Positions 8,946-38,579 of a stretch of 64,000 nt of DNA are shown here, piece after piece. Below the pieces are notes generated by a model. It did no database searches and was not told where the DNA came from. It was given only the letters and a program-made list of their open reading frames with translations. How positions within the stretch are numbered: the first letter of the stretch is position 1; the number at the start of each line of letters is the position of its first letter. Origin of the DNA: Mobula hypostoma (taxonomy: Eukaryota); contig NC_086097.1 of assembly GCF_963921235.1 (NCBI RefSeq), positions 135,472,001-135,536,000 of the forward strand, given 5' to 3'. A program made the translations under genes and the position numbers.

Positions 8946-9469
8946 TATATTTTACTGAATTTCTGAACTCCACAAATGAAGGACTGCAATTAACAGCATC
9001 ACCTGACAACCGGAGATACCATTTAATTTCAAATCAGTGCCAGACCAAAGAGGATTGCAGTGATATATGCAACAGAAAAGTTTTAATAACCTATATTTTG
9101 TGATCTTTACATTTGGGGGTTATCAGAATTCTCCACCTTCTTTTGGTTAATATTAAACTGGCCGATTCAAAGTTGTATTGGCGTATTATAGAATCTTACA
9201 GCAATCCATTGCATTGATTCTAGGGCTTCGAATCAGTCAAGTGCTATTGAGTTGGTGATTAACTGACCAGCTCTCTCACTGAGTTATGTTTTACCAACAA
9301 TTTTCTCTTGCTACTGCAGAGACACTTGAGCAGAGAAAGTCAAACAGTACTATTCTTTTCTCATACACTAATAAACATTCTTTTCCTGTAATAGAAACAT
9401 AGAAACATAGAAAATAGGTGCAGGAGTAGGCCATTCGGCCCTTCGAGCCTGCACCGCCATTTATTATGA

Positions 9470-12400
9470 TCATGGCTGATCATCCAACTCAGAACCCAGC
9501 CTTCCCTCCATACCCCCGACCCCTGTAGCCACAAGGGCCATATCTAACTTCCTTTTAAACATAGCTAATGAACTGGCCTCAACAGTTTGCTGTGGCAGAG
9601 AATTCCACAGATTCACCACTCTCTGTGTGAAGAAGTTTTTCCTAATCTCGGTCCTAAAAGGCTTCCCCTCTATCCTCAAACTGTGACCCCTCGTTCTGGA
9701 CCTCCCCAACATCGGGAACAATCTTCCCGCATCTAGCCTGTCCAATCCCTTTAGGATCTTATACGTTTCAATCAGATCCCCCCTCAATCTTCTAAATTCC
9801 AACGAGTACAAGCCCAGTTCATCCAGTCTTTCTTCATATGAAAGACCTGCCATCCCAGGAATCAATCTGGTGAACCTTCTTTGTACTCCCTCTATGGCAA
9901 AGATGTCTTTCCTCAGATTAGGGGACCAAAACTGCACACAATACTCCAGGTGTGGTCTCACCAAGGCCTTGTACAACTGCAGTAGTACCTCCCTGCTCCT
10001 GTACTCGAATCCTCTCGCTATAAATGCCAGCATACCGTTCGCCTTTTTCACCGCCTGCTGTACCTGCATGCCCACTTTCAATGACTGGTGTATAATGACA
10101 CCCAGGTCTCGTTGCACCTCCCCTTTTCCTAATCGGCCACCATTCAGATAATAATCTGTTTTCCTATTTTTGCCACCAAAGTGGATAACTTCACATTTAT
10201 CCACATTAAATTGCATCTGCCACGAGTTTGCCCACTCACCCAACCTATCCAAGTCACCCTGCATCCTCTTAGCATCCTCCTCACTGCTAACACTGCCACC
10301 CAGTTTCGTGTCATCCGCAAACTTGGAGATGCTGCATTTAATTCCCTCATCCAAGTCATTAATATATATTGTAAACAACTGGGGTCCCAGCACTGAGCCT
10401 TGCGGTACCCCACTAGTCACCGCCTGCCATTCTGAAAAGGTCCCGTTTATTCCCACTCTTTGCTTCCTGTCTGCTAACCAATTCTCCACCCACACCAATA
10501 CCTTACCCCCAATACCGTGTGCTTTACGTTTGCACACTAATCTCCTGTGTGGGACCTTGTCAAAAGCCTTTTGAAAATCCAAATATACCACATCCACTGG
10601 TTCTCCCCTATCCACTCTACTAGTTACATCCTCAAAAAATTCTATGAGATTCGTCAGACATGATTTTCCTTTCACAAATCCATGCTGACTTTGTCCGATC
10701 ATTTCACCGCTTTCCAAATGTGCTGTTATCACATCCTTGATAACTGACTCCAGCAGTTTCCCCACCACCGACGTTAGGCTAACCGGCCTATAATTCCCCG
10801 GTTTCTCTCTCCCTCCTTTTTTAAAAAGTGGGGTTACATTAGCCACCCTCCAATCCTCAGGAACTAGTCCAGAATCTAACGAGTTTTGAAAAATTATCAC
10901 TAATGCATCCACTATTTCTTGGGCTACTTCCTTAAGCACTCTGGGATGCAGACCATCTGGCCCTGGGGATTTATCTGCCTTCAATCCCTTCAATTTACCT
11001 AACACCACTTCCCTACTAACATGTATTTCGCTCAGTTCCTCCATCTCACTGGACCCTCTGTCCCTTACTATTTCTGGAAGATTATTTATGTCCTCCTTAG
11101 TGAAGACAGAACCAAAGTAATTATTCAATTGGTCTGCCATGTCCTTGCTCCCCATAATCAATTCACCTGTTTCTGTTTGCAGGGGACCTACATTTGTCTT
11201 TATCAGTCTTTTCCTTTTTACATATCTATAAAAGCTTTTACAGTCCGTTTTTATGTTCCCTGCCAGTTTTCTCTCATAATCTTTTTTCCCCTTCCTAATT
11301 AAGCCCTTTGTCCTCCTCTGCTGAACTCTGAATTTCTCCCAGTCCTCAGGTGAGCCACTTTCTCTGGCTAATTTGTATGCTACTTCTTTGGAATTGATAC
11401 TATCCCTAATTTCTCTTGTCAGCCACGGGTGCACTACCTTCCTTGATTTATTCTTTTGCCAAACTGGGATGAACAATTGTTGTAGTTCATCCATGCAACC
11501 TTTAAATGCCTGCCATTGCATATCCACCGTCAATCCTTTAAGTGTCATTTGCCAGTCTATCTTAGCTAATTCACGACTCATACCTTCAAAGTTACCCCTC
11601 TTTAAGTTCAGAACCTTTGTTTCTGAATTAACTACGTCACTCTCCATGTTAATGAAGAATTCCACCATATTATGGTCACTCTTACCCAAGGGGCCTCTCA
11701 CGACAAGATCGCTAATTAACCCTTCCTCATTGCTCAAAACCCAGTCCAGAATAGCCTGCTGTCTAGTCGGTTCCTCGACATGTTGGTTCAAAAAACCATC
11801 CCGCATACATTCCAAGAAATCCTCTTCCTCAGCACCTTTACCAATTTGGTTCACCCAGTCTACATGTAGATTGAAGTCACCCATTATAACTGCTGTTCCT
11901 TTATTGCACACATTTCTAATTTCCTGTTTAATACCATCTCCGACCTCACTACTACTGTTAGGTGGCCTGTACACAACTCCCACCAGCGTCTTCTGCCCCT
12001 TAGTGTTACGCAGCTCTACCCATTTCGATTCCACATCTTCCCGGCTTATGTCCTTCCTTTCTATTGCGTTAATCTCCTCTCTAACCAGCAACGCCACCCC
12101 ACCTCCCCTTCCTTCATGTCTATCCCTCCTGAATATTGAATATCCCTGAACGTTGAGCTCCCATCCCTGGTCACCCTGGAGCCATGTCTCTGTGATCCCA
12201 ACTATATCATAATCATTAATAACAATCTGCACTTTCAATTCATCCACCTTATTACGAATGCTCCTTGCATTGACACATAAAGCCTTCAGGCGCTCTTTTA
12301 CAACTCTCTTAGCCCTTTTTAATGCTTGCCCTGGATTTGTCGGCCTGCCACTTTTACTTTTCTCCTTTGTACTTTTTGCTTCTACGCTCACTTTACACCC

Positions 12401-12487
12401 CTCTGTCTCTCTGCACTGGTTCCCATCCCTCTGTTGTGAACTAACCTCCTCACACCTAGCCTCTTTAATTTGATTCCCACCCCCCAA
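9470..12487 (-). CDS. CR1 ORF2: apurinic endonuclease plus reverse transcriptase
   Basis: 1005-codon ORF with EN motifs (NARS, ITETW, YRPP, GDFN, SDH) and RT motifs (KSPGPDG, YRPVSL, DFQKAFD, GVPQGSVLGP, FADD). The annotated start is TTG, not ATG. A probable 1-nt deletion alters the last ~15 codons. Confidence 0.95.
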   Translation of the reverse strand: MGGGNQIKEARCEEVSSQQRDGNQCRETEGCKVSVEAKSTKEKSKSGRPTNPGQALKRAKRVVKERLKALCVNARSIRNKVDELKVQIVINDYDIVGITETWLQGDQGWELNVQGYSIFRRDRHEGRGGGVALLVREEINAIERKDISREDVESKWVELRNTKGQKTLVGVVYRPPNSSSEVGDGIKQEIRNVCNKGTAVIMGDFNLHVDWVNQIGKGAEEEDFLECMRDGFLNQHVEEPTRQQAILDWVLSNEEGLISDLVVRGPLGKSDHNMVEFFINMESDVVNSETKVLNLKRGNFEGMSRELAKIDWQMTLKGLTVDMQWQAFKGCMDELQQLFIPVWQKNKSRKVVHPWLTREIRDSINSKEVAYKLARESGSPEDWEKFRVQQRRTKGLIRKGKKDYERKLAGNIKTDCKSFYRYVKRKRLIKTNVGPLQTETGELIMGSKDMADQLNNYFGSVFTKEDINNLPEIVRDRGSSEMEELSEIHVSREVVLGKLKGLKADKSPGPDGLHPRVLKEVAQEIVDALVIIFQNSLDSGLVPEDWRVANVTPLFKKGGREKPGNYRPVSLTSVVGKLLESVIKDVITAHLESGEMIGQSQHGFVKGKSCLTNLIEFFEDVTSRVDRGEPVDVVYLDFQKAFDKVPHRRLVCKRKAHGIGGKVLVWVENWLADRKQRVGINGTFSEWQAVTSGVPQGSVLGPQLFTIYINDLDEGIKCSISKFADDTKLGGSVSSEEDAKRMQGDLDRLGEWANSWQMQFNVDKCEVIHFGGKNRKTDYYLNGGRLGKGEVQRDLGVIIHQSLKVGMQVQQAVKKANGMLAFIARGFEYRSREVLLQLYKALVRPHLEYCVQFWSPNLRKDIFAIEGVQRRFTRLIPGMAGLSYEERLDELGLYSLEFRRLRGDLIETYKILKGLDRLDAGRLFPMLGRSRTRGHSLRIEGKPFRTEIRKNFFTQRVVNLWNSLPQQTVEASSLAMFKRKLDMALVATGVGGMEGRLGSELDDQP

Positions 12488-12492
12488 CCATT

Positions 12493-13452
12493 CTAGTTTA
12501 AAGTCACCTCAGTAGCCCCCGCTAATCTCCCTGCCAGGATATTGGTCCCCCTAGGATTTAAGTGTAACCCGTCCTTTTTGTACAGGTCACACCTGCGCCA
12601 AAAGAGGTCCCAATGATCCAAAAACTTGAATCCCTGCCCCCTGCTCCAATCCCTCAGCCACGCATTTATCCTCCACCTCATCGCATTCCTACTCTCACTG
12701 TCGCGTGGCACAGGCAGTAATCCCGAGATTACTACCTTTGCGGTCCTTTTTCTCAACTCCCTTCCTAGCTCCCTATATTCTTCTTTCAGGACCTCATCCC
12801 TTTTCCTACCTATGTCATTGGTACCTATATGTACCAGGACCTCTGGCTCTTCACCCTCCCACTTCAGGATATCTTGGACACGATCAGAAATATCCCGGAC
12901 CCTGGCATCAGGGAGGCAAACTACCATCCGAGTCTCTGGACTGCGTCCACAGAATCGCCTATCTGACCCCCTTACTATCGAGTCCCCTATCACAACTGCC
13001 CTCCTCTTCCTTGCCCTACCCTTCTGAGCTACAGGGCCAGACTCTGTGCCGGAGGCAGGGCCACTGTCACTTCCCCCGGGTAAGCTGTCCCCTCCAACAG
13101 TACTCAAACAGGAGTACCTGTTGTTAAGGGGCACAGCCACCGGGGTACTCCCCATCACCTGCCTTTTCCCCTTCCCCCTCCTAACCGTGACCCACTTGTC
13201 TGCCTCCCGTGGCCCCGGCGTGACCACCTGCCTTCCACTCCTCTCTATCACCTCCTCGCTCTCCCTGACCAGACGAAGGTCATCGAGCTGCAGCTCCAGT
13301 TCCGTAACGCGGTCCCTTAGGAGCTGCATCTCGATGCACTTGGCGCAGATGTAGACGTCCGGGAGGCTTGGAGACTCCAGGGCCTCCCACATCCGACACC
13401 GAGAACAGCAAACTGCCCTCACAGTCGTAATGCCCCTCTCCTCAAATAGCAA
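12493..13452 (-). CDS. CR1 ORF1: zinc finger/leucine zipper plus SGNH esterase domain
   Basis: CxxC..CxxC (CSRC, CAKC), coiled coil LRDRVTELELQL, and esterase blocks VIGDS, HIGTND, DGLHL. Start codon uncertain (TTG at 13452; ACG may be a mutated ATG). Confidence 0.92.
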   Translation of the reverse strand: MLFEERGITTVRAVCCSRCRMWEALESPSLPDVYICAKCIEMQLLRDRVTELELQLDDLRLVRESEEVIERSGRQVVTPGPREADKWVTVRRGKGKRQVMGSTPVAVPLNNRYSCLSTVGGDSLPGGSDSGPASGTESGPVAQKGRARKRRAVVIGDSIVRGSDRRFCGRSPETRMVVCLPDARVRDISDRVQDILKWEGEEPEVLVHIGTNDIGRKRDEVLKEEYRELGRELRKRTAKVVISGLLPVPRDSESRNAMRWRINAWLRDWSRGQGFKFLDHWDLFWRRCDLYKKDGLHLNPRGTNILAGRLAGATEVTLN

Positions 13453-14329
13453 CAGAAAATGAATGTCAAACCTTCCTCGCCTCGCCCGCTTCTGCCTAAG
13501 CCCGGTGAGCCAAAGCCCTTAAGTCTTCACTCTGCTCCCGGCTCACTCCGCCGCCCGCAAACTACGCTGCCCGCTCTATGAGGCTCTGTTCCTTTTAAAT
13601 CTGCCGCGCTGCACTGCCCAACGTCACACGCCTGCGCAGTCCCGCCTCTCAGAAAGCCGTTGGAGAAAAAAACATAACGAAAATTTCAAAAATCTCTTTC
13701 TCGGCACTCCCACTCAGACTCTCAGACTCCTTCTTCGAATCAAATCCGAAGCAGGATGTCTGCCCTTTTAATCTTGCATTTTTCTGTTGAAAGTTTCTAA
13801 CAAAGCCATTTTCAAAATCCTCCCTGGCAGTAGAATCATAACTTAGATAAAGTTTCTGTGCAAAAGCTCCTCTTGCTATTTGTGATCAACACATTACAAT
13901 TGTAAACCACTGCCTCATCTACCCAACAAAACCAAAAATAATTTGAAAGGCCTTTATCAGGACCCCTTAACCTTTTCTGTTTCAAGGAGAATATGATCAG
14001 ACATTTCCTGTCACTCACACTTCACTAAATATCTGTATCCCTCACAGATCTGCGAATCCTTCCTAAAATTCAATGCCCAGAAATGAAAAAAGTACTTCAG
14101 CTGAGATCGAACAAGTGTTTTACAGAGCACTTCCTTGCTTTTACTTCATGAATTAAAGGTAAAACATACACATTCAATAGCTATCAAATTGTCTAGTCAT
14201 TTTCCATGGAGAGGAAACTTCTTTTCTATGGCACCTTATGGAACACCTGATTTTCTGCCAATGAAGTATTTTGAAGATTACACAAGAAACTGCAGATGCT
14301 AGAATTTGCAGCAACACACAGAACAGAAT

Positions 14330-25129: not shown

Positions 25130-28050
25130 TAAAGGACCCGAGGGGGACCAATATTCTCAGGGGCAAGCTTGTTAGAGCTGGTGAGGAGGGTTTAACTAAT
25201 TTGGCTGGGGGGTGGGAACTGGAGTGAAGGGTCTCAGAATAGGATGGATGGTTTTAAAAAAAGCAAAGATAGGGTGCAGTCAGACTGCTGGGAGGGCAGG
25301 CAGACGATGGACAAAATTGCAGCCAGCAGGGTGAGTATCAGTGCATTAAGATGCAGAATCAAAAAGGGTAGCAAATGCAGTACTCAAAGTGTTATATCTC
25401 AATGCACAGAGTACAAGAAATAAGGTGGATGATCTTGTTGCACTATTACAGATTGTCAGGTGTGATGATGTGGTCATCACTGAATTGTTGCTGAAGGATG
25501 GTTGCAGTTGGGAGCTGAATGTATTGGCGGGATGGGAAGGTAGGCAGAGGGGGTGGCGTGGCTCTGCTGGTAAAGAATGGCATCAAATCATTAGAAAGAT
25601 GTGACATAGGATTGGAAAATGTTGAATTGTTGTGGGTTGAGTTACGAAACTGCAAGAGAGAAAGGACCTTGATGGTAGTTATATACAGGCCTCCCAACAC
25701 TAGCTGGGAGGTGGATCACAGATTACAACAGGAAATAGAAAAGGCTTGTCAAAAGGGCAAAGTTATGATAGTCACGGGAGATTTTAACATGCAGGTAAAT
25801 TGAGAAAATCAGGTTGGTAATGGATCTTAACAGAGTGAATTTGGTGAATGTCTACGAGATGGCTTTTAAGAGTAGCTTGTCGTTGAGCCTACTAGGGAAT
25901 TAGCTATACTGTACTGGGTATTATGTAATGAACTGGAGGTGATTAAGGAGCTTAAAGGTAAATAAACCCTTAGGAGGTAGTGATCACAATATTATTGAGT
26001 TCAACTTGAAATTTGATAGGGAGAAAGTAGTCTGATGTAGCAGTATTTCAGTTGAGTAAAGGAAATTACAGTACGAGAGAGGAGTTTGCCAAATTAAATT
26101 GGAAGAAGATGGTGGCAGGGATGAAAGCAGACTAGCAATGGCTTGAGCTTCTGGGAAAAATGAGGAAGGTGCAGGATAGGTGTATTCCAAAAAGAAAGAA
26201 ATACTCAAATGGCAAAATAGTACAACCATGGCTAAGGAGGGAAGTCAGAGATAATGTAAAAGCAAATGAGAGGGCATACAACAAAGCAAAAAATTAGTGC
26301 GAAGACAGAGGATTGGGAAGCTTTTAAAACCCTACAGAGAGCAACTAAAGTATCATTAGGAGGGAAAAGATGAAATATGAAAGCAAGCTAGGAAACAATA
26401 TCAAAGTGGATAGTAAAAGCTTTTTCCAAGTGTGTAAAAAATGAAAGAGAGATGAAAGTGGATATAGGACCAGTAGAAAATAAGGCCAGAGAAATAATAA
26501 TGGGGGCCAGGGAGATTGCAGATGAACTAAGTGAGTATTTTGCATCAGTCTTCACTGTGGAAGACACTAGCAGTGTGCCAGGTGTTGAAGGGTGTGAGAG
26601 AAGAGAAGTGAGTGCAGTTACTATAAGGAGGGAGAAGGTGCTGAAAAGACTGAAAGACCTAAAAGTACACAAATCACCAGGAACAGATAAACTGCACCCC
26701 AAGGTTCTGAAAGTAGAGATTGAGATTGTAGAGCAGTAGAGATTGTGGTGGCATTAGAAATGATCTTTCAAAAATCACTAGACTCTGGCATGGTTCCGGA
26801 GGACTAGAAAATTGCAAATGTCACTCCACTCTTCAAGAAAGGAGGAAGGCAGCAGAAAGGAAATTATAGACCAGTTAGCCTGACCTCAGTGGTTGGGAAG
26901 ATGTTGGAATCAATTTTTAAGGATGAGGTTATGGAATACTTGGTGACACAGGAAAGATGACATGGTTTCCTTAAGAGAAAATCTTGCCTGACGAACCTGC
27001 TGGAATTCTTTGAGGAGATTACAAGTAGGATAGATAAAGGGGATGCAGTGGATGTTGTAAGTTTGGACTTTCAGAAGGCCTTTGACAAGGTGCCACACAC
27101 CAGGTTGCTTACCTAGTTAAGAGCTATGGTATTACAGGAATGTTACTAGCATGGTTAGAGCAGTGGCTTGATGGGTAGGAGGCAGTAAGTGGGAATACAA
27201 GGATCTTTTTTCTGTTTGGCTGCCAGTGACTAGTGGTGTTCCACAAGGGTCAGTGTTGGGACTGCTGCTTTTTATGCTGTATACCAATGGTTTAGACAAT
27301 GAAACAGATGGCTTTGTTGCCAAGTTTGCAGATGATATGAAGATTGGTGGAGGGGCAGGTAGTGTTGAGGAAACGGGGAGCCTGCAGAAAAACTTAGATT
27401 AGGAAAATGGGCAAGAAAGGGGCAAATGAAATACAATGTTGGAAAATGCAAGGTATGCACTTTGGTAGAAGAAATAAATGTGTACACTATTTTCTAAAAA
27501 TGGAGAAAATCCAAAAATCTGAGATGCAAAGGGACTTAGGAGTCCTCATGCAGGACACCCTAAAGGTTAACTTGCAGGTTGAGTTGATGGTGGTGAAGGC
27601 AAATGCAATGTTAGCGTTCATTTAAAGAGGTCTGGAATACAAGAACAGGGATGTGATGCTGAGGCTTTATAATGCACTGGTGAGGCCTCACCTTGAGTAT
27701 TGTGAACAGTTTTGGGCTCCTAAACTAAGAAAAGATGTGCTCGCATTGGAGAGGGTCCAGAGGAGATTCACAAGGGTGATTCCAGGAACGAAAGGTTTAT
27801 CATATGAGGAACGTTTGATGGCTCTGGGCCTGTACTCGCTGCAATTTAGGAGGATGGGGGGGGGATCTCATTGAAACCTTTTGCATGTTGAAAGATCTTG
27901 ACAGTAGATGTGGAAAGGATATTTCCCATGGTGGGGTAGTATAGGACAAGCGGGCACAACCTCGGGATAGAGGGGTGTCCATTTAAAACAGAAATGCTCA
28001 GAAATTTCTTTAGCCAGGGGGCAGTGAATTTGTGGAATTTGTAACCACAG
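25130..28050 (+). mobile_element. Degenerate CR1 LINE (ORF1 end through ORF2)
   Basis: LYLNAQSTRNKVD, YRPPN, GDFN, KSPGTD, FADD and LVRPHLEYC, with many stops and frameshifts. Confidence 0.92.
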
Positions 28051-29539: not shown

Positions 29540-30945
29540 CTGAATTGAATTGACTTTATTTCTTGCATCCTTCATATTCACGAGGAGTAAAAATCTTTAT
29601 GTTACATCTCTATCTAAATGTGCCATGTGCGATCATAGTAATTTATAATAAATAGAACCGTCAATGTAATATAGAATACACTCAAATCAGCGCGAGTTCA
29701 TCAGTCTAATGGCCTGGTGGAAGAAGTTGTCCTGGAGCCAGTTGGTCCTGGCTTTTATGCTGGGGTACCGCTTCCCGGATGGTAGCAGTTGGAATAGATT
29801 GTGGTTGGGGTGACTTCGATCCCCAATGATCCTACACACCTGTCCTTGTAAATGTCCTGAATCATGGGAAATTCACAGCTACAGATGCGCTAGGCTGTCT
29901 GCACCACTCTCTGCAGAGTCCTGCGATTAAGGGAGGTGCAGTTCTCATACCAGGCAGTGATGCAGACAGTCGGGATACTCCCAACTGTGTAGAAAGGTCT
30001 TAGGATTTGGGGGCCCATACCAAACTTCCTCAACTGTCTGAGGTGAAAGAGGCGCTGGTGTGTATAGGCCATGTGAGGTCCTTGGTGATGTGGATGCCGA
30101 GGAACTTGAAGCTGTTTACTCTCTCAACCCCAGATCCATTGATGTCAATAGGAATTAGCCCGTCTCCATTCCTCCTGTAATCCACAACCAGCTCCTTTGT
30201 TTTTGCGACATTGAGGGAGAGGTTGTTTTCTTGACACCACTGTGTCAGAGAGATGACTTCTTCCCTGTAGGCCACCTCGTTATTGTTTGAGATTAGGCCA
30301 ATCAATGTAGTGTCGTCGGCAAATTTAATTAGCAGATTAGAGCTGTGGGTGGCGATACAGTCATGGGTATACAGGGAATAAAGGAGGGGACTCAGTACGT
30401 AGCCACGAGGGGCTCCTGTATTGAGAGCCGGAGGGCTGGAGGTGAGGGAGCCCACTCTTACAACCTGCCAGTGATCTGACAGGAAGTCCAGGATCCAGCT
30501 GCATAAGGTAGGGTCAAGGCCGAGGTCTCTGAGCTTCTTGTCAAGCCTGGATGAAACTATGGTGTTGAATGCTGAACTGTAGTCCAAGAACAGCATTCTC
30601 ACATAAGCATCCTTCTTCTCCAGATGTGTAAGGAGGGTATGTAGAGCAGTGGCTATTGCATCATTTGTCGATTGGTTGTGTTGGTAGGTGATTTTGGGTG
30701 GTAGCAAGCTGCAGATGTAATCCTTGACCAGCCTCTCAAAGCATTTGCTTATTATTGAGGTGAGTGTGACCGGACACCAGTCATTCAGGCACGTTACCTT
30801 GGTCTTTTTTGGTACAGGGACAATGGTGGATAACTTGAAGCAGGAGGGCACTCTACACTGGGAGAGGGAGATATGAAAAATATCAGTAAACACACCTGCC
30901 AGTTGTGCTGAGCACATCCTGAGAACTTGCCCTGGGATGTCGTTT
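29540..30945 (-). mobile_element. 5'-truncated Rex/Babar-type LINE
   Basis: 295-aa RT ORF at 30030-30917 (LFLDYSSAFNTI, LSPLLYSLYT, KFADDTT) followed by the C-terminal region and 3' UTR. Confidence 0.92.
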
Positions 30946-32109
30946 AAATTGGTATAATGGTGAGCACAGACATGGGCCCCTTCCTGTGCTTTACTGTTTT
31001 ATGTTCAAACATCTTATGTTCATCTTTTATGATATTAAAAGATTGATCAGAAAGCATTCTACATTCCCTCATATGCTTAGTTCACCACAGTTCAAGAGAT
31101 TCAAGTTCAATCCTGACCTCAGGTGCTGTTTGTGCGCAGTTTACATATTATCCCTGTGAATGCATGGGTTTACTCTGGTTTCCTACAACTGGTAGGTTAA
31201 CTGGCCACTGTAAATTGCAGGTGTGGGGTAGAAAGTTCAGGGAGTTAATGAGAATATGAAATGGGATGAATGTAGGATTAGTGTAAACAGGTGCCTGTAG
31301 CTCACACCAGGGACTCAATGGGTTGAAGAACCTGTTTCTTTGTCTCTCCCCATGACTCAAGTCAGTTTGCAAACAACTAATTCTTCATTTCAAATACGAC
31401 AGATGAAGAAGCTGACACAAAAAGATAACCAAGCTAAAGAAAATTAAGAACACGTTATCTGGACGCCAGCAGTCATGGGTCATCAGATCTTTGTGGAAAT
31501 GTTCACTTTCTGCCAAGGCAGGGGGAACGTTGGAGAGTCAGTGGCAGGTTTGGGGTCCAAATCTGAAGCAGCAGTATGGCCAGCAAAGTCTAAGGCCTAA
31601 CGGGGAAAACAGAAACAGCCACTGGCATTTTAAATTCAGCAATAAAATTGTCCAGTTGTATCTCCAAGCAATTCTGATTGCAATCTTTAAATGTTTAGCT
31701 GCATCATATAAAAAAGTTTAAGAGGTAGAAATATTAAAATTATCTCCCTGCTTCAACTGTTGTAGGAACTGTTGACTCATCTTTGGACAACCATTGGCCG
31801 AAATGCAGTTTGTGATTTAGTTTTTGGGGGCAATTGGGATTGTGTTGACTACTAACAATATGCCTTAATATGGCATTGCTAATTTTACACTGAGTGATGT
31901 GGCGAGATACCATGGTGGATGATGCACCAGCATTTGCATTACACTCACTAAAGCACGGAACTAAAATGATACAATTTATTTTTGGTCAATTCTTGGTCAG
32001 TCATTGTACAGGAGACCAAGGAGCTTTGTGAGGAAACCGAAGATTCCATCAGACTGAATTCAACGAGACATAAATCATCCTGCTATGATGCAGGGCTTTG
32101 GCAAGACTT

Positions 32110-34765: not shown

Positions 34766-35305
34766 TGTAGCCCACATCCTGACTACTGTTTGGAGACCTG
34801 TACATAACTACCATCAGGGTCTTTTTACCCTTGAGGTTTCTTAACTCTACCCAGAAGGATTCTACATCTTCTAATGCTTTGTCACCTCTGAGGATTTGAT
34901 TTCACTTTTACCAACAGAGCCACACCATCTGTCTGGCTACCTGCATGTCCTTTCAATACAAAGTGTATCCTTTAATATTAAGCTCCAAACTATAATCTTC
35001 TTTCAGCCACGACTCAGTGATGCCCACATCATAACCGCCAATCTCTAACTGTGCTACAAGATTATTTACCTTATATTTGAATGCACAGTAAACAGAATAA
35101 CACCTTCAGTCCTGTATCGATCTCTCTTTACAATTTTATCCCCCTGTTACACTGCAACTCATTCCACTGACTGCAATTTTGCCCCATCACCTGCCTGTCA
35201 AACTTCTTGACAATCTCACTACACAATGCCTCTGCTTATAAACCAACAGACCTATCCCTCGGCCCTTTCATTCTGGATCCCACCGCCCTGCCAATTAGTT
35301 TAAAC

Positions 35306-37094
35306 CAGAGTATCCCAAACTTTTTTAGCCCAATACCCCCCCCAAATAATTGTCAAACTTGCCAGGATCCCCCAAAGCAGCTTCATACTTGCTAATGCCC
35401 CTCTTAGGCACAATATATTTCCCAGCGTCCACAAAGTGTAAAAACATGTCTACCATATGCCAACATGAGAAAAATGATTCAGCTTTAAATTTGTATTTGT
35501 CTTTAAACCTAGCTTACACAATAGCTGTGTACTATACAGCAGCTTCAATATCAATATGATCCTTGAGCTTGATGGGTTTTAGCAAGAGTTGAAATATCTT
35601 ATTCAAGTTGTGACAGCAAAAGCCTCAAGTTGCCATGCATTGCAATGTCCAAGCAGTTTCTGTTTTTTTGTGAGTATGTGGTTCACTGCACTGAAGCCTC
35701 TTTCAACAAGGTAGGAGAAAGGAAATGCAATGAAGAACAGTTTGGCTCTTCTCCAAAGACCAGGAAACTTTGTATCACAGTGCAATCACATACCAAAAAA
35801 AGCCAACATTTTTGAAAAGCATTTTGGCTTCGTCATCATTCTGAATTTTGATCATTTCTTCTTGCAAGCTCTCTTCCTATTTTCCACTTTGCAAAGAAAT
35901 GTGTTAATTACCCAGTCTGGAATTTCCAGATCATTCAAACCCTTGAATCAATTCTGAAAATCTTTCTTCAGTGACTGTAGGTATAAGCAGTACTCTTGCA
36001 AATCACTGCCTGTGAAAGAGAATGCCATACCTTCCATGCAGGGAAACTGTGAGAACATTCTTCTCCCAATGTTTTGGTTATATGTTTCCAATGAAAGTGG
36101 ACACTGCACTCATCCAGTTGTGTCCCAAATTCTGTTTTTTGTAGCTCTGTGCAGAGTTGATGCTCAATGTCTTCACTCATTTGGTCATTACAACAGCTAC
36201 AACATTATTACTCAGAGCAACTGATTTTAAGATATTGGTATCCTTTTTGAGAATAGTGGTGAGCACTTCTGACACAGCAGGCATTATTAATCTTTTGCAA
36301 ATTGAATAAGATTTTCCACACTTTGCTGTCAGTTTGGAAATGTTATAAGAAGCAATGAGACTACTATCAAGGTCATTTTTAGCCTTCTTAGCCAACGACT
36401 CAAGTGTGAAAGATTTTCAAATGCTTCTTTCATCTTCTGGAACTGAGTAATACCATAAGTAGCGTTATCAGGGTGTCTTTTACAGAAGTGGTCCTGCAAT
36501 CCTGATAAACACAAAATAATCTGCAGATGCTGGGGTCAAAGCAACACTCACAACACGCTGGAAGAACTCAGCAGGTCAGGCAGCATCCGTGGAAACGTCG
36601 ACTGATCGTTTCCACGGATGCTGCCCGACCTGCTGAGTTCCTCCAGCGTGTTGTGAGTGCTGCAATCTTGACAGTTTCACGGCTTCACTAGACAGTACAG
36701 TATTACAAATAAGACACATGGGGCATCGCTGACCTGACAGGAACTAAATAAAACCAAACTTCAGGTATGTAACATCGTATTGACGCACTTTCTGTAGTTT
36801 CTGTTTCTTAGCAGGTTAGAATTCAAGGCTTCACCACCTTCAGACTCAGAGATCGCGCTGTACATATTTATGTATCATTAACGGCGCTAAATTAAAATTA
36901 AAAAAAACCGGCAAACTGGGAATGCCCATCGGATGTTGACGGCAGTGAGTCCACACAATTGAGCAGGTCTCGTGCCTCAAGTTAGGGGGCCACTTACTGA
37001 TCCTCCTCCCCAAAGAATCTTGAATCTCCCCCCTCAAAACCATTTCCCCTAATGCCCCCAAAGGGCATGTAACTGCCCCCATTGTGAAACTCTG
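35306..37094 (-). mobile_element. Internally deleted hAT (Charlie/Buster, ZBED5-like) transposon
   Basis: TIRs cagagtatcccaa / ttgtgaaactctg; 8-bp TSD gtttaaac / gtttaatc; transposase remnants ASYNISKL.AKCGK, EFGTQLDE and FPFSYLVERGFS. Confidence 0.9.
36506..36659. repeat. Inverted Penelope terminal-repeat insertion forming a 53-bp hairpin
   Basis: Arms 36545-36597 and 36607-36659 with 2 mismatches; 12-bp TSD ctgcaatc(c/t)tga at 36494-36505 and 36660-36671. Confidence 0.9.
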
Positions 37095-38579
37095 GTTTAA
37101 TCACTCCCCAACAGCTCTAGAAAACCTGTCTGCACGGATATCGGTTCCCCCTCGAGTTCAGGTGTAATTTTGCCCCTTTTGTATATGAGACACTGACGAT
37201 CCAGAAACCTGAACCCCTGCCCTCTGCACCAGTTTCTCAGCCATGCATTCATCTGCCAAATCATCCTGTTCTCACCCTCACTGGCGCATGGCACAGAGAC
37301 CAATCCAGAGTCTGTTACCATGGGTGATCTGCTGTTCAGCTTTCTACTTAACTCTTGAAATCCTCTCTTCAGAACCTCCTCTCCTTTCCTACCCAAGAGT
37401 TCTGGCTGCTCACCCTCCCCCTTTAGAATGCTGTGGACCCGATCTGAGATATCTCTGGCCCTGGCACCTGGGAGGCAACATACCATCCTGCCGGGCCTGT
37501 TGTGTCCACAGAAACTCCAGTCTATGTGTTGCAAAGGACCTCCAATTCCAGCTGAGGCTTCCCTTGGGTAATGAAAGGACTCCTTTTTTATAGATGGCCA
37601 TAAATCAGTTTTGTCCAAAAGTCCGACAGGACACAAAGATACCTGACGTGGTAACCAGACTTCCATACTATGTGTAATGACCAGCAGGAAAAGCGCACAG
37701 GACGGATAAAAACAATTACTAAAAGTGGAGAGAGGAACTAGCTCTGCTGTTTGTTAGAAACAGACTTTCAAATTCAATATTACGGTACCTCGTTTGTACA
37801 TATGGGTGCCCACGGGTTAGGCATTAGTAACTACGAGACAGCCTGAATGCAACAAAGAATGCTAATATTTGCACAGTGAAAATATTTTGCGCAGGTTATT
37901 GTTCCCCATAGCTGCAAATTTACAGCATGAATGAATATGCCATTTGCAAATAATTCTTGTATACAAAAACTAGGGTAAATTTTCAAAAGATAACAAAATT
38001 ATTCCTGAATGATTTAAAGTAATTGGTTTATGAAATGACTGATTAGTCTGATTAGCCACCCACCCACACAGAATTCTGTCAAGCATAAATAAGTCAGTGT
38101 AGGAAACGCACAACATTCACTCGATTATGGAGCTATACAGCAGATAAATGCCCTTTACCCCACTGAATCCTCATTAGCCATCCAACACCCAATTGCAATA
38201 ATCCATTTTATTTTTCCACGTTGTGCTCAAATTCCTCCAGATTCTTCTACTCACCTTTACATTAGGGGCAATTTACAGCAGCCAATTAGCCTAGTCTTTG
38301 GGAAGTGGGAGGACACAGGAGCACTTGAAAGAAATCCAGCAATCACAGGAAGAATGGGAAAACACTGAACGTCAGGATTGAATCAGGGTTGCTGGAGCTT
38401 CAGGTAGAGTTCTACCAGCTGCACCTCATGACTTGTTTTGGTGCAATAGGAAGACTCTGGCTGATCCTGTCTTACTCTCAAACCTGTGTGCTCTCTGAAA
38501 CTGACTGGCTTCAACAAGAATACAGCCTTCAGCTTTGTTTGCCTCATTATGGGTGAATGGGAAAGTTTTAAAAGATGGC

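What the first reader, a model, noticed from the sequence alone, without database searches (positions are those of the whole stretch)
12470..12515. CR1 LINE ORF2 appears to be expressed by -1 ribosomal frameshifting at a U_UUA_AAC slippery site
Seen: ORF1 ends ACT TTA AAC TAG, so a perfectly phased X_XXY_YYZ heptamer T_TTA_AAC (plus-strand 12496-12502) sits directly before the stop. A -1 slip reads TTT AAA CTA GAA TGG TTG GGG, which is the ORF2 frame (FKLEWLGGGNQ...). ORF2 has no ATG until about codon 200 (VIMGDFN), past the endonuclease NARS and ITETW motifs, so AUG initiation would give a truncated enzyme. A G-rich tract (GGTTGGGGGGTGGG) begins about 6 nt after the heptamer. A diverged CR1 copy keeps GGT TTA AAC TAA plus a G tract (35298-35305, minus), and a third has it with one A lost (about 25190-25218, plus). 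Known: UUUAAAC is the coronavirus-type slippery heptamer, whereas well-studied LINEs (human L1, SART1) use termination-reinitiation or translational coupling. Inference: this family makes a gag-pol-like ORF1-ORF2 fusion protein. I cannot verify whether this has been reported for CR1.
Basis: partly seen in the sequence, partly recalled or inferred. Interest (0 to 1): 0.85.

Follow-up and report, generated by a model that had tools for sequence, protein, structure and literature searches.

The report
Conserved frameshift site in CR1 LINEs
In this ray-like genome and in sharks, amphibians, reptiles and birds, the abundant CR1 jumping gene ends its first gene with the same seven-letter slippery sequence plus a stop, and its second gene runs on one base back, so the copying enzyme is likely made by a ribosome slip that would fuse the two proteins, as retroviruses do.

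Summary
Confirmed. A near-full-length CR1 LINE (minus strand) ends its esterase ORF1 in T_TTA_AAC-TAG (12502-12493). ORF2 is open in the -1 frame from there; its first Met lies 206 codons on, inside the endonuclease. The heptamer is fixed at DNA level. Six ray subfamilies (54-83% identical nearby) keep it, while an internal Leu-Asn uses three codon pairs. 18 of 23 heptamer+stop hits in published consensus sequences sit at CR1-type junctions from chimaera to crocodile, with TAG, TAA or TGA; six synonymous variants hit no CR1. Linkers of 43-109 codons keep the frame. A GGGGG-NN-GG(G) motif starts 10 nt downstream in all six subfamilies; no significant 3' fold was found. Best reading: -1 ribosomal frameshift giving an ORF1-ORF2 fusion (0.8, untested at the bench). 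Against: two subfamilies have a linker AUG, and no structural stimulator was seen. Distant invertebrate-type relatives have an in-frame TGA-C junction instead (readthrough-like). A review states -1 frameshifting for Dictyostelium LINEs. I found no such report for CR1 in 10 searches, but the 1997 CR1 papers were not readable. This scan noted the same site before on other DNA. The window copy has ACG at its ORF1 start.

The parts
9391..13771 (-). Near-full-length CR1-type LINE of a young, high-copy subfamily (A)
   Evidence: 5 of 30 family loci align up to 13771 and the rest are 5'-shorter, 98-99.7% identical; 40 of 40 scored matches to the junction at 100% identity, 1069 candidates
12493..13428 (-). 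ORF1, 311 codons: N-terminal Cys motif, SGNH/GDSL esterase, ends T-L-N-stop; start codon is ACG in this copy
   Evidence: Pfam PF13472 E 1.5e-15; profile hits PDB 4c1b ORF1-encoded protein E 2e-38; ATG in 15 of 15 family copies that reach it
12496..12502 (-). Slippery heptamer T_TTA_AAC in ORF1 phase
   Evidence: conserved in six subfamilies
12493..12495 (-). ORF1 stop (TAG) directly 3' of the heptamer; TAA or TGA in other lineages
12476..12485 (-). G-rich motif GGGGG-NN-GG(G) starting 10 nt 3' of the heptamer; candidate stimulator (untested)
   Evidence: G is the commonest letter at +10..+14, +17 and +18 in 6 of 6 subfamilies and at +19 in 5 of 6; same register in alligator, crocodile, sawfish and catshark consensus rows, read by eye
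12275..12495 (-). Open -1-frame linker (76 codons counted from the heptamer) leading to the endonuclease NARS motif
   Evidence: 0 stops in the -1 frame against 6 and 8 in the other two; 0.5% of 2000 shuffles open (family copy L001)
9470..12508 (-). ORF2, 1012 codons stop-to-stop: APE endonuclease plus reverse transcriptase; first ATG at 11884-11882
   Evidence: Pfam PF03372, PF14529, PF00078
9391..9415 (-). 3' end in short tandem repeats (TTTCTATG-type), no poly(A)
   Evidence: sequence
35280..35304 (-). Older CR1 copy (subfamily C): heptamer, TAA, G tract
25190..25218 (+). Older CR1 copy (subfamily B): heptamer with one A lost, TAA, G tract

Best explanation
This is the ORF1/ORF2 junction of a vertebrate CR1 LINE, where ribosomes likely slip back one base on the conserved U_UUA_AAC just before the ORF1 stop and would then read an open linker into the endonuclease and reverse transcriptase, making an ORF1-ORF2 fusion protein. 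Shown: phase, open -1 frame, DNA-level invariance of the heptamer across lineages, frame-keeping linker lengths, and a G motif at fixed distance. Inferred: most ribosomes stop and release the 311-aa ORF1 protein; a minority slip in tandem (tRNA-Leu and tRNA-Asn re-pair on UUU and AAA) and give a product of about 1320 aa in which ORF1's terminal Leu-Asn is followed by Leu-Glu-Trp of the -1 frame. This would set a high ORF1:ORF2 ratio and tether esterase to polymerase. Least certain: what slows the ribosome. No 3' stem-loop stands out, so the adjacent stop and the G motif 10 nt downstream (possibly a protein-binding site) are the candidates.
For: (1) Exact heptamer in own-genome copies: A 30/30, B 20/29, C 14/23, D 10/20, E 19/20, F 20/20 (8 of 150 loci dropped for lacking an ORF1 end). 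All six subfamilies agree on the commonest letter at all 7 heptamer positions and the stop's first two, though their last 300 nt of ORF1 are 54-83% identical (7 representatives). (2) Internal control: the Leu-Asn of the LHLN motif about 20 codons upstream is TTA AAT, CTG AAC or TTG AAC by subfamily, whereas the terminal one is TTA AAC in all. (3) ORF1 homologs that reach the last helix end in LN-stop in 44 of 50 (shark/ray set), 52 of 55 (bird set) and 43 of 51 representatives of 50%-identity clusters. The residue before LN can have a T-ending codon in 95 of 96 and 43 of 43 (the sets overlap slightly). (4) Stork, crane and stingray gene models that enter the other frame read S/G-F-K-L there (4 proteins), which together with LN-stop forces T TTA AAY. 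(5) Published consensus sequences (PMC13343379 supplement, first 400 nt of each row): 18 of 23 heptamer+stop hits lie at an ORF1 end by eye, in rows coded for chimaera, sharks, rays, bowfin, coelacanth, bullfrog, crocodilians and a lizard, with TAG, TAA or TGA. Six synonymous variants gave 6 hits, none in a CR1 row. (6) Linkers of 76, 69, 66, 43-50 and 109 codons in rays and 95 in birds all stay in the -1 frame; open from heptamer to NARS in A 29/30, E 17/20, F 15/20. (7) No Met before NARS in 29 of 29 open A copies and 16 of 17 open E copies. (8) U_UUA_AAC is listed among the most shift-prone sites for mammalian ribosomes (PMC5009743 passage). (9) Distant esterase-LINE relatives have the same layout with an in-frame TGA-C instead, which suggests selection for a fusion product.
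Against: No measurement of frameshifting or of a fusion protein. No significant downstream fold: z -0.6 to +0.2 in the window and -0.5 to +1.0 in 8 elements; a G-quadruplex over the motif was predicted only for subfamily A; pseudoknots were not modelled. 15 of 15 open F copies and 5 of 5 open B copies have an in-frame Met in the linker (mostly codon 18; 37-38 in some B), and the bird linkers contain Met too, so reinitiation is possible there. Human L1 ORF2 is reported to be translatable without its AUG (recalled, paper not held), which weakens the no-AUG argument. The G motif also encodes Gly-x-Gly in a G-rich strand. Older subfamilies are mostly broken (C 0/23, D 1/20, B 5/29 open), so phase there rests on few copies. 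The supplement tally has no known denominator and covers only some synonymous variants.
Confidence: 0.8

Rival explanations
1. ORF2 is made by termination-reinitiation: ribosomes stop at the ORF1 stop and restart nearby at an AUG or a non-AUG codon, as in SART1 and human L1, giving a free ORF2 protein.
For: SART1 uses a UAAUG stop-start (PMC3708506 passage). F and B subfamilies and bird elements have linker Mets. No structural frameshift stimulator found.
Against: A and E have no Met for 206 and usually 104 codons. Met positions are not shared between subfamilies. Reinitiation does not explain seven fixed bases upstream of the stop, nor a frame kept open from the heptamer itself.
Confidence: 0.12
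2. The motif is conserved for another RNA-level role (splice acceptor, RNA processing or protein binding, or polymerase slippage), and ORF2 comes from a spliced or shorter RNA.
For: TTTAAACTAG resembles a branch point plus YAG acceptor (my reading). Nine fixed bases and a G motif could be a binding site.
Against: Three of six ray subfamilies plus B have TAA and a lizard consensus has TGA, which removes the AG. Runs of three are short for polymerase slippage (own knowledge). A spliced or short RNA would still lack an AUG in A and E.
Confidence: 0.05
3. The terminal Leu-Asn is a protein requirement and the heptamer is a by-product of overlapping amino-acid constraints in two frames.
For: Leu and Asn are nearly invariant columns of the ORF1 alignments.
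Against: Constraint on F-K-L in the -1 frame presupposes that those bases are read in that frame. The solved zebrafish ORF1 esterase aligns only to profile position 307 of 311 and has two further residues, and the invertebrate-type homologs mostly run on 12-15 residues without LN-stop. Synonymous spellings were not seen in CR1 rows.
Confidence: 0.03

Closest known systems
Dictyostelium TRE5-A and TRE3-A (APE-type non-LTR elements)
   Same: Two-ORF LINEs for which a review states that ORF2 needs a -1 frameshift (PMC5911963 figure legend; primary papers not seen).
   Different: Amoebozoan, tRNA-gene-targeting, no esterase ORF1 described in the passages seen; their slip site was not compared here.
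Retroviral and LTR-element gag-pol -1 frameshift; coronavirus (IBV) U_UUA_AAC site
   Same: Same heptamer class, same phase, structural ORF upstream of an enzyme ORF (PMC5009743 passages).
   Different: No 3' stem-loop or comparable fold detected; no protease domain found in ORF2, so the fusion might stay uncleaved; non-LTR element.
Arterivirus (PRRSV) protein-stimulated frameshifting
   Same: A short single-stranded motif about 10-11 nt 3' of the shift site in place of a structure (CCCANCUCC bound by nsp1beta and PCBP).
   Different: The CR1 motif is G-rich; no binding protein is known or tested; analogy only.
Zebrafish ZfL2-1 (CR1-1_DR), L2 clade with esterase ORF1
   Same: Homologous ORF1 esterase (PDB 4c1b, E 2e-38). 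ORF2 reported to be made by suppression of the ORF1 stop (Kajikawa et al. 2012; recalled, not readable here), which also yields a fusion.
   Different: In-frame readthrough rather than a -1 shift; the relatives with that layout found here have TGA-C and no slippery heptamer (0 of 75).
SART1 and human L1 ORF2 translation
   Same: Bicistronic LINE RNA in which ORF2 depends on ORF1 translation.
   Different: Termination-reinitiation at a stop-start or after a spacer; free ORF2 protein.

Membership tests
CR1-clade LINE | ORF2 with APE endonuclease followed by reverse transcriptase | tested here: met
   Pfam PF03372/PF14529 at 93-282, PF00078 at 566-783
CR1-clade LINE | Esterase-type ORF1 (the only ORF1 type found in vertebrate CR1 and L2 by PMC13343379 section 15) | tested here: met
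CR1-clade LINE | 3' short tandem repeat without poly(A); frequent 5' truncation (recalled features) | tested here: met
CR1-clade LINE | Reverse transcriptase groups with CR1 in a phylogeny | not tested
   No tree built; ORF1 homology links it to bird ORF1 proteins and the junction matches rows labelled CR1 by eye
Programmed -1 ribosomal frameshift site | X_XXY_YYZ heptamer in the phase of the upstream ORF | tested here: met
Programmed -1 ribosomal frameshift site | Downstream ORF open in the -1 frame from the heptamer | tested here: met
Programmed -1 ribosomal frameshift site | Heptamer conserved beyond amino-acid need | tested here: met
Programmed -1 ribosomal frameshift site | Transframe product or reporter activity dependent on the heptamer | not testable with these tools
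   needs reporter, mass spectrometry or ribosome profiling
Canonical retrovirus/coronavirus-type (structure-stimulated) -1 site | Stable stem-loop 5-9 nt 3' of the heptamer | tested here: not met
   folding z-scores -0.6 to +1.0; no Rfam match at gathering score. Not filed under this subtype
Canonical retrovirus/coronavirus-type (structure-stimulated) -1 site | Pseudoknot or long-range pairing as stimulator | tested here: inconclusive
   duplex scan of the G motif against 8 elements found no partner position shared by all; pseudoknots not modelled

The most novel reading that the evidence does not exclude
All esterase-ORF1 CR1 LINEs of jawed vertebrates have used, for over 400 million years, a structure-free -1 frameshift triggered by a protein binding a G-rich motif 10 nt downstream, and the wider CR1/L2 group switches between frameshift and TGA-C readthrough at the same spot because these elements need an uncleaved esterase-endonuclease-RT fusion protein.
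Probability: 0.3. Interest if true: 0.88.

Novelty: new variant of a known kind. Interest (0 to 1): 0.7.

Why it matters
CR1 is the dominant LINE group in most vertebrates (PMC13343379 abstract, search listing), yet the passages I read on CR1 structure do not say how ORF2 is translated. A fixed slip site makes that directly testable with a 60-nt reporter insert. If right, the real CR1 polymerase starts with the ORF1 esterase, annotations that begin ORF2 at its first ATG cut off part of the endonuclease, screens for intact CR1 copies should score the junction, and CR1 assays need the native junction. It would add one of few conserved -1 frameshift signals in vertebrate genomes, possibly with an unusual non-structural stimulator.

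Tried and rejected
The metagenome scan returned only distant relatives (20-37% identity). Expression: no RNA holder listed (all 'RNA' labels are guesses). Contigs of 4 runs cover the element but cannot show strand, level or transcript form; among 15 of 69 joints shown none is a splice-type skip across the junction; not used as evidence. Local fold, G-quadruplex and long-range duplex searches gave nothing shared by all subfamilies. Rfam: one sub-threshold hit only. Splice-acceptor reading rejected because TAA and TGA replace TAG. Other slippery heptamers or an AAT spelling at junctions: none among the rows shown. PMC4316615 supplement file 2 gave only ORF2 3'-region hits; file 1 could not be searched. 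Literature: 10 searches found no statement of frameshifting in CR1; 'chicken repeat 1'+ORF1+ORF2+frameshifting gave 0 papers. Three papers were not held (SART1 2005, Kapitonov and Jurka 2003, Alisch 2006). Haas 1997, Kajikawa 1997 and Kajikawa 2012 were not looked up by id and could hold an earlier remark.

Full report
Observation. The finding lies in a LINE on the minus strand, about 13771 to 9391. ORF1 (stop-to-stop 13518-12493) encodes an SGNH/GDSL esterase and ends V-T-L-N-stop; ORF2 (12508-9470, 1012 codons) encodes an APE endonuclease and a reverse transcriptase and lies in the -1 frame. The last seven coding bases of ORF1 are T_TTA_AAC (12502-12496), directly followed by TAG. ORF2's first Met is residue 209. 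The nearest named ORF1 protein is from a devil ray at 98% identity; the genome has 3.5 Gb. The subfamily is young: 40 of 40 scored junction matches are 100% identical and 30 loci are 98-99.7% identical over their aligned part, many 5'-truncated. The window copy has ACG where 15 of 15 family copies that reach the ORF1 start have ATG, so this copy is probably not an expressed master; the argument concerns the family.

Is the heptamer more than chance? One occurrence is not: 23 heptamers lie in the window, 4 before a stop. I sampled 150 own-genome loci from six searches (the best 20-30 loci of each, not a random sample); 8 lacked an ORF1 end and were dropped. Exact heptamers: A 30/30, B 20/29, C 14/23, D 10/20, E 19/20, F 20/20; the misses are scattered changes in old copies. 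All six groups agree on the commonest letter at the seven heptamer positions and the first two stop positions, while seven representatives share 54-83% of the last 300 nt of ORF1 and 44-72% of the following linker. The internal control is the Leu-Asn of the LHLN motif: TTA AAT in A, CTG AAC in B, C, D, F and part of E, TTG AAC in the rest of E; the terminal Leu-Asn is TTA AAC throughout. From the element's codon usage that spelling has probability about 0.014 per independent lineage; the lineages are related, so this is not to be multiplied out.

Other vertebrates. Of ORF1 homologs reaching the last helix, 44 of 50 in the shark/ray search (71 hits) and 52 of 55 in the bird search (82 new hits) end in LN-stop, as do 43 of 51 among 150 cluster representatives. 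The preceding residue is one that allows a T-ending codon in 95 of 96 and 43 of 43. Stork and crane gene models that cross in the other frame read S-F-K-L-D/G-S-K-G-E-G/V, and a stingray one G-F-K-L-N. In the supplement of PMC13343379 (consensus families from 101 vertebrates; cells cut to 400 characters) heptamer+TAG gave 12 hits, 11 at an ORF1 end by eye; +TAA 8 hits, 6 at an end; +TGA 3 hits, 1 at an end. The row codes, which I read as species names, cover chimaera, dogfish, catshark, sawfish, stingray, bowfin, a teleost (row labelled Crack), coelacanth, bullfrog, alligator, crocodile and bearded dragon. Six synonymous variants with TAG gave 6 hits, none in a CR1 row. The number of rows whose junction falls in the visible part is unknown.

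The linker is under frame constraint. From heptamer to the NARS-type motif there are 76 (A), 69 (B), 66 (D), 43-50 (E) and 109 (F) codons, and 95 in birds. The -1 frame is open in A 29/30, E 17/20, F 15/20, B 5/29, D 1/20, C 0/23. In five representatives the -1 frame has 0-1 stops against 2-13 in the others, and 0-4% of shuffles stay open. A and E have no Met in the linker (29/29, 16/17), but F (15/15) and B (5/5) do, and so do the bird linkers; this counts against using 'no AUG' as a general argument.

Stimulator. G is the commonest base 10-14 and 17-18 nt after the heptamer in all six groups, including third codon positions of the -1 frame, and crocodilian, sawfish and catshark rows show the same register. 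Folding of the 3' region is no better than shuffles, a two-tier quadruplex over the motif is predicted only in A, and no long-range partner is shared. The Atkins review (passages; first 300,000 of 449,034 characters held) lists U_UUA_AAC among the most shift-prone sites, describes a protein-bound C-rich motif 11 nt downstream in PRRSV, and says natural quadruplex stimulators were not known. A protein-bound G motif is my guess by analogy; a low basal slip aided by the adjacent stop may be enough.

Relatives with another layout. The metagenome scan returned 80 loci with distant esterase ORFs, which I take to be invertebrate host LINEs. Of 75 with an ORF1 stop, none has a slippery heptamer before it and 50 have TGA-C. 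Of 37 where the endonuclease start is seen, 31 are in frame 0 and 29 of those are open from the stop through a 43-134-codon linker, in 10 sequence clusters. 25 of the 29 have a Met somewhere in that stretch, so readthrough there is suggested, not shown. It matches what I recall of zebrafish ZfL2-1 (stop suppression; Kajikawa 2012, not seen), whose esterase is the top solved-structure hit. Two recoding layouts at one homologous point favour a fusion product.

Literature. Ten searches found no statement on CR1 frameshifting. Seen as passages only: PMC5009743, PMC3905857, PMC3708506, PMC4120745, PMC4245944, PMC2734521, PMC2718515, PMC11835228, PMC5911963, PMC3880073. PMC13343379: passages, section 15 and supplement searches; 'frameshift' occurs 0 times in its text and visible supplement. 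PMC4316615: supplement file 2 only. PMC5911963 states that TRE5-A and TRE3-A need a -1 frameshift, and Drosophila R1B ORFs overlap in -1, so frameshifting LINEs are not a new idea. The 1997 descriptions of chicken and turtle CR1 were not read and may mention the overlap. Earlier notes of this scan report the same site in two other genomes and a related Penelope case in this one; they are not independent evidence, and one gave the TRE5-A lead.

Verdict. A real, ancient, DNA-level signal. Most likely a -1 ribosomal frameshift producing an ORF1-ORF2 fusion (0.8), with reinitiation the main rival (0.12). It works like gag-pol frameshifting but is not filed under the structure-stimulated subtype, because no 3' stem-loop was found. 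New variant of a known kind; interest 0.7.

Noticed in passing
L091-L170 (for example L107, L114, L118, L156): Distant esterase-ORF1 LINEs have ORF2 in the same frame behind one TGA followed by C (often TGA-CTA/CTT/CCA/CAA) and an open linker of about 70 codons: a readthrough-type layout.
   Followed up: partly
window 13426-13428 (minus): ORF1 start of the window copy is ACG; family copies have ATG.
   Followed up: yes
window 37080-37522 (minus): A fourth, decayed CR1 ORF1 fragment ends in a degraded version of the junction and is then interrupted.
   Followed up: partly
PMC13343379 supplement rows SquAca_CR1-3 and SquAca_CR1-18: A heptamer+stop also occurs in the 5' untranslated part of these dogfish consensus sequences; meaning unknown.
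   Followed up: no
PMC13343379 supplement row AldAff_Crack-2: A teleost element labelled Crack shows esterase-like coding sequence ending in the CR1 heptamer+TAG, although the paper reports no ORF1 for vertebrate Crack; possibly a mislabelled CR1.
   Followed up: no
P0022: A CR1 ORF1 protein 60% identical to the ray one is named as a Pseudomonas aeruginosa hydrolase, likely host contamination.
   Followed up: no
window 30030-30998 (minus) and 35500-36800 (minus): A distant reverse-transcriptase fragment (26% to ORF2) and a decayed stretch that looks by eye like a DNA transposase.
   Followed up: no
P0028, P0062, P0111, P0126, P0134: CR1 ORF1 sequence is fused into host gene models (named ribosomal protein S24, TMEM204, SOX5-like, PDLIM5 and others), probably annotation artefacts or exonised copies.
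   Followed up: no
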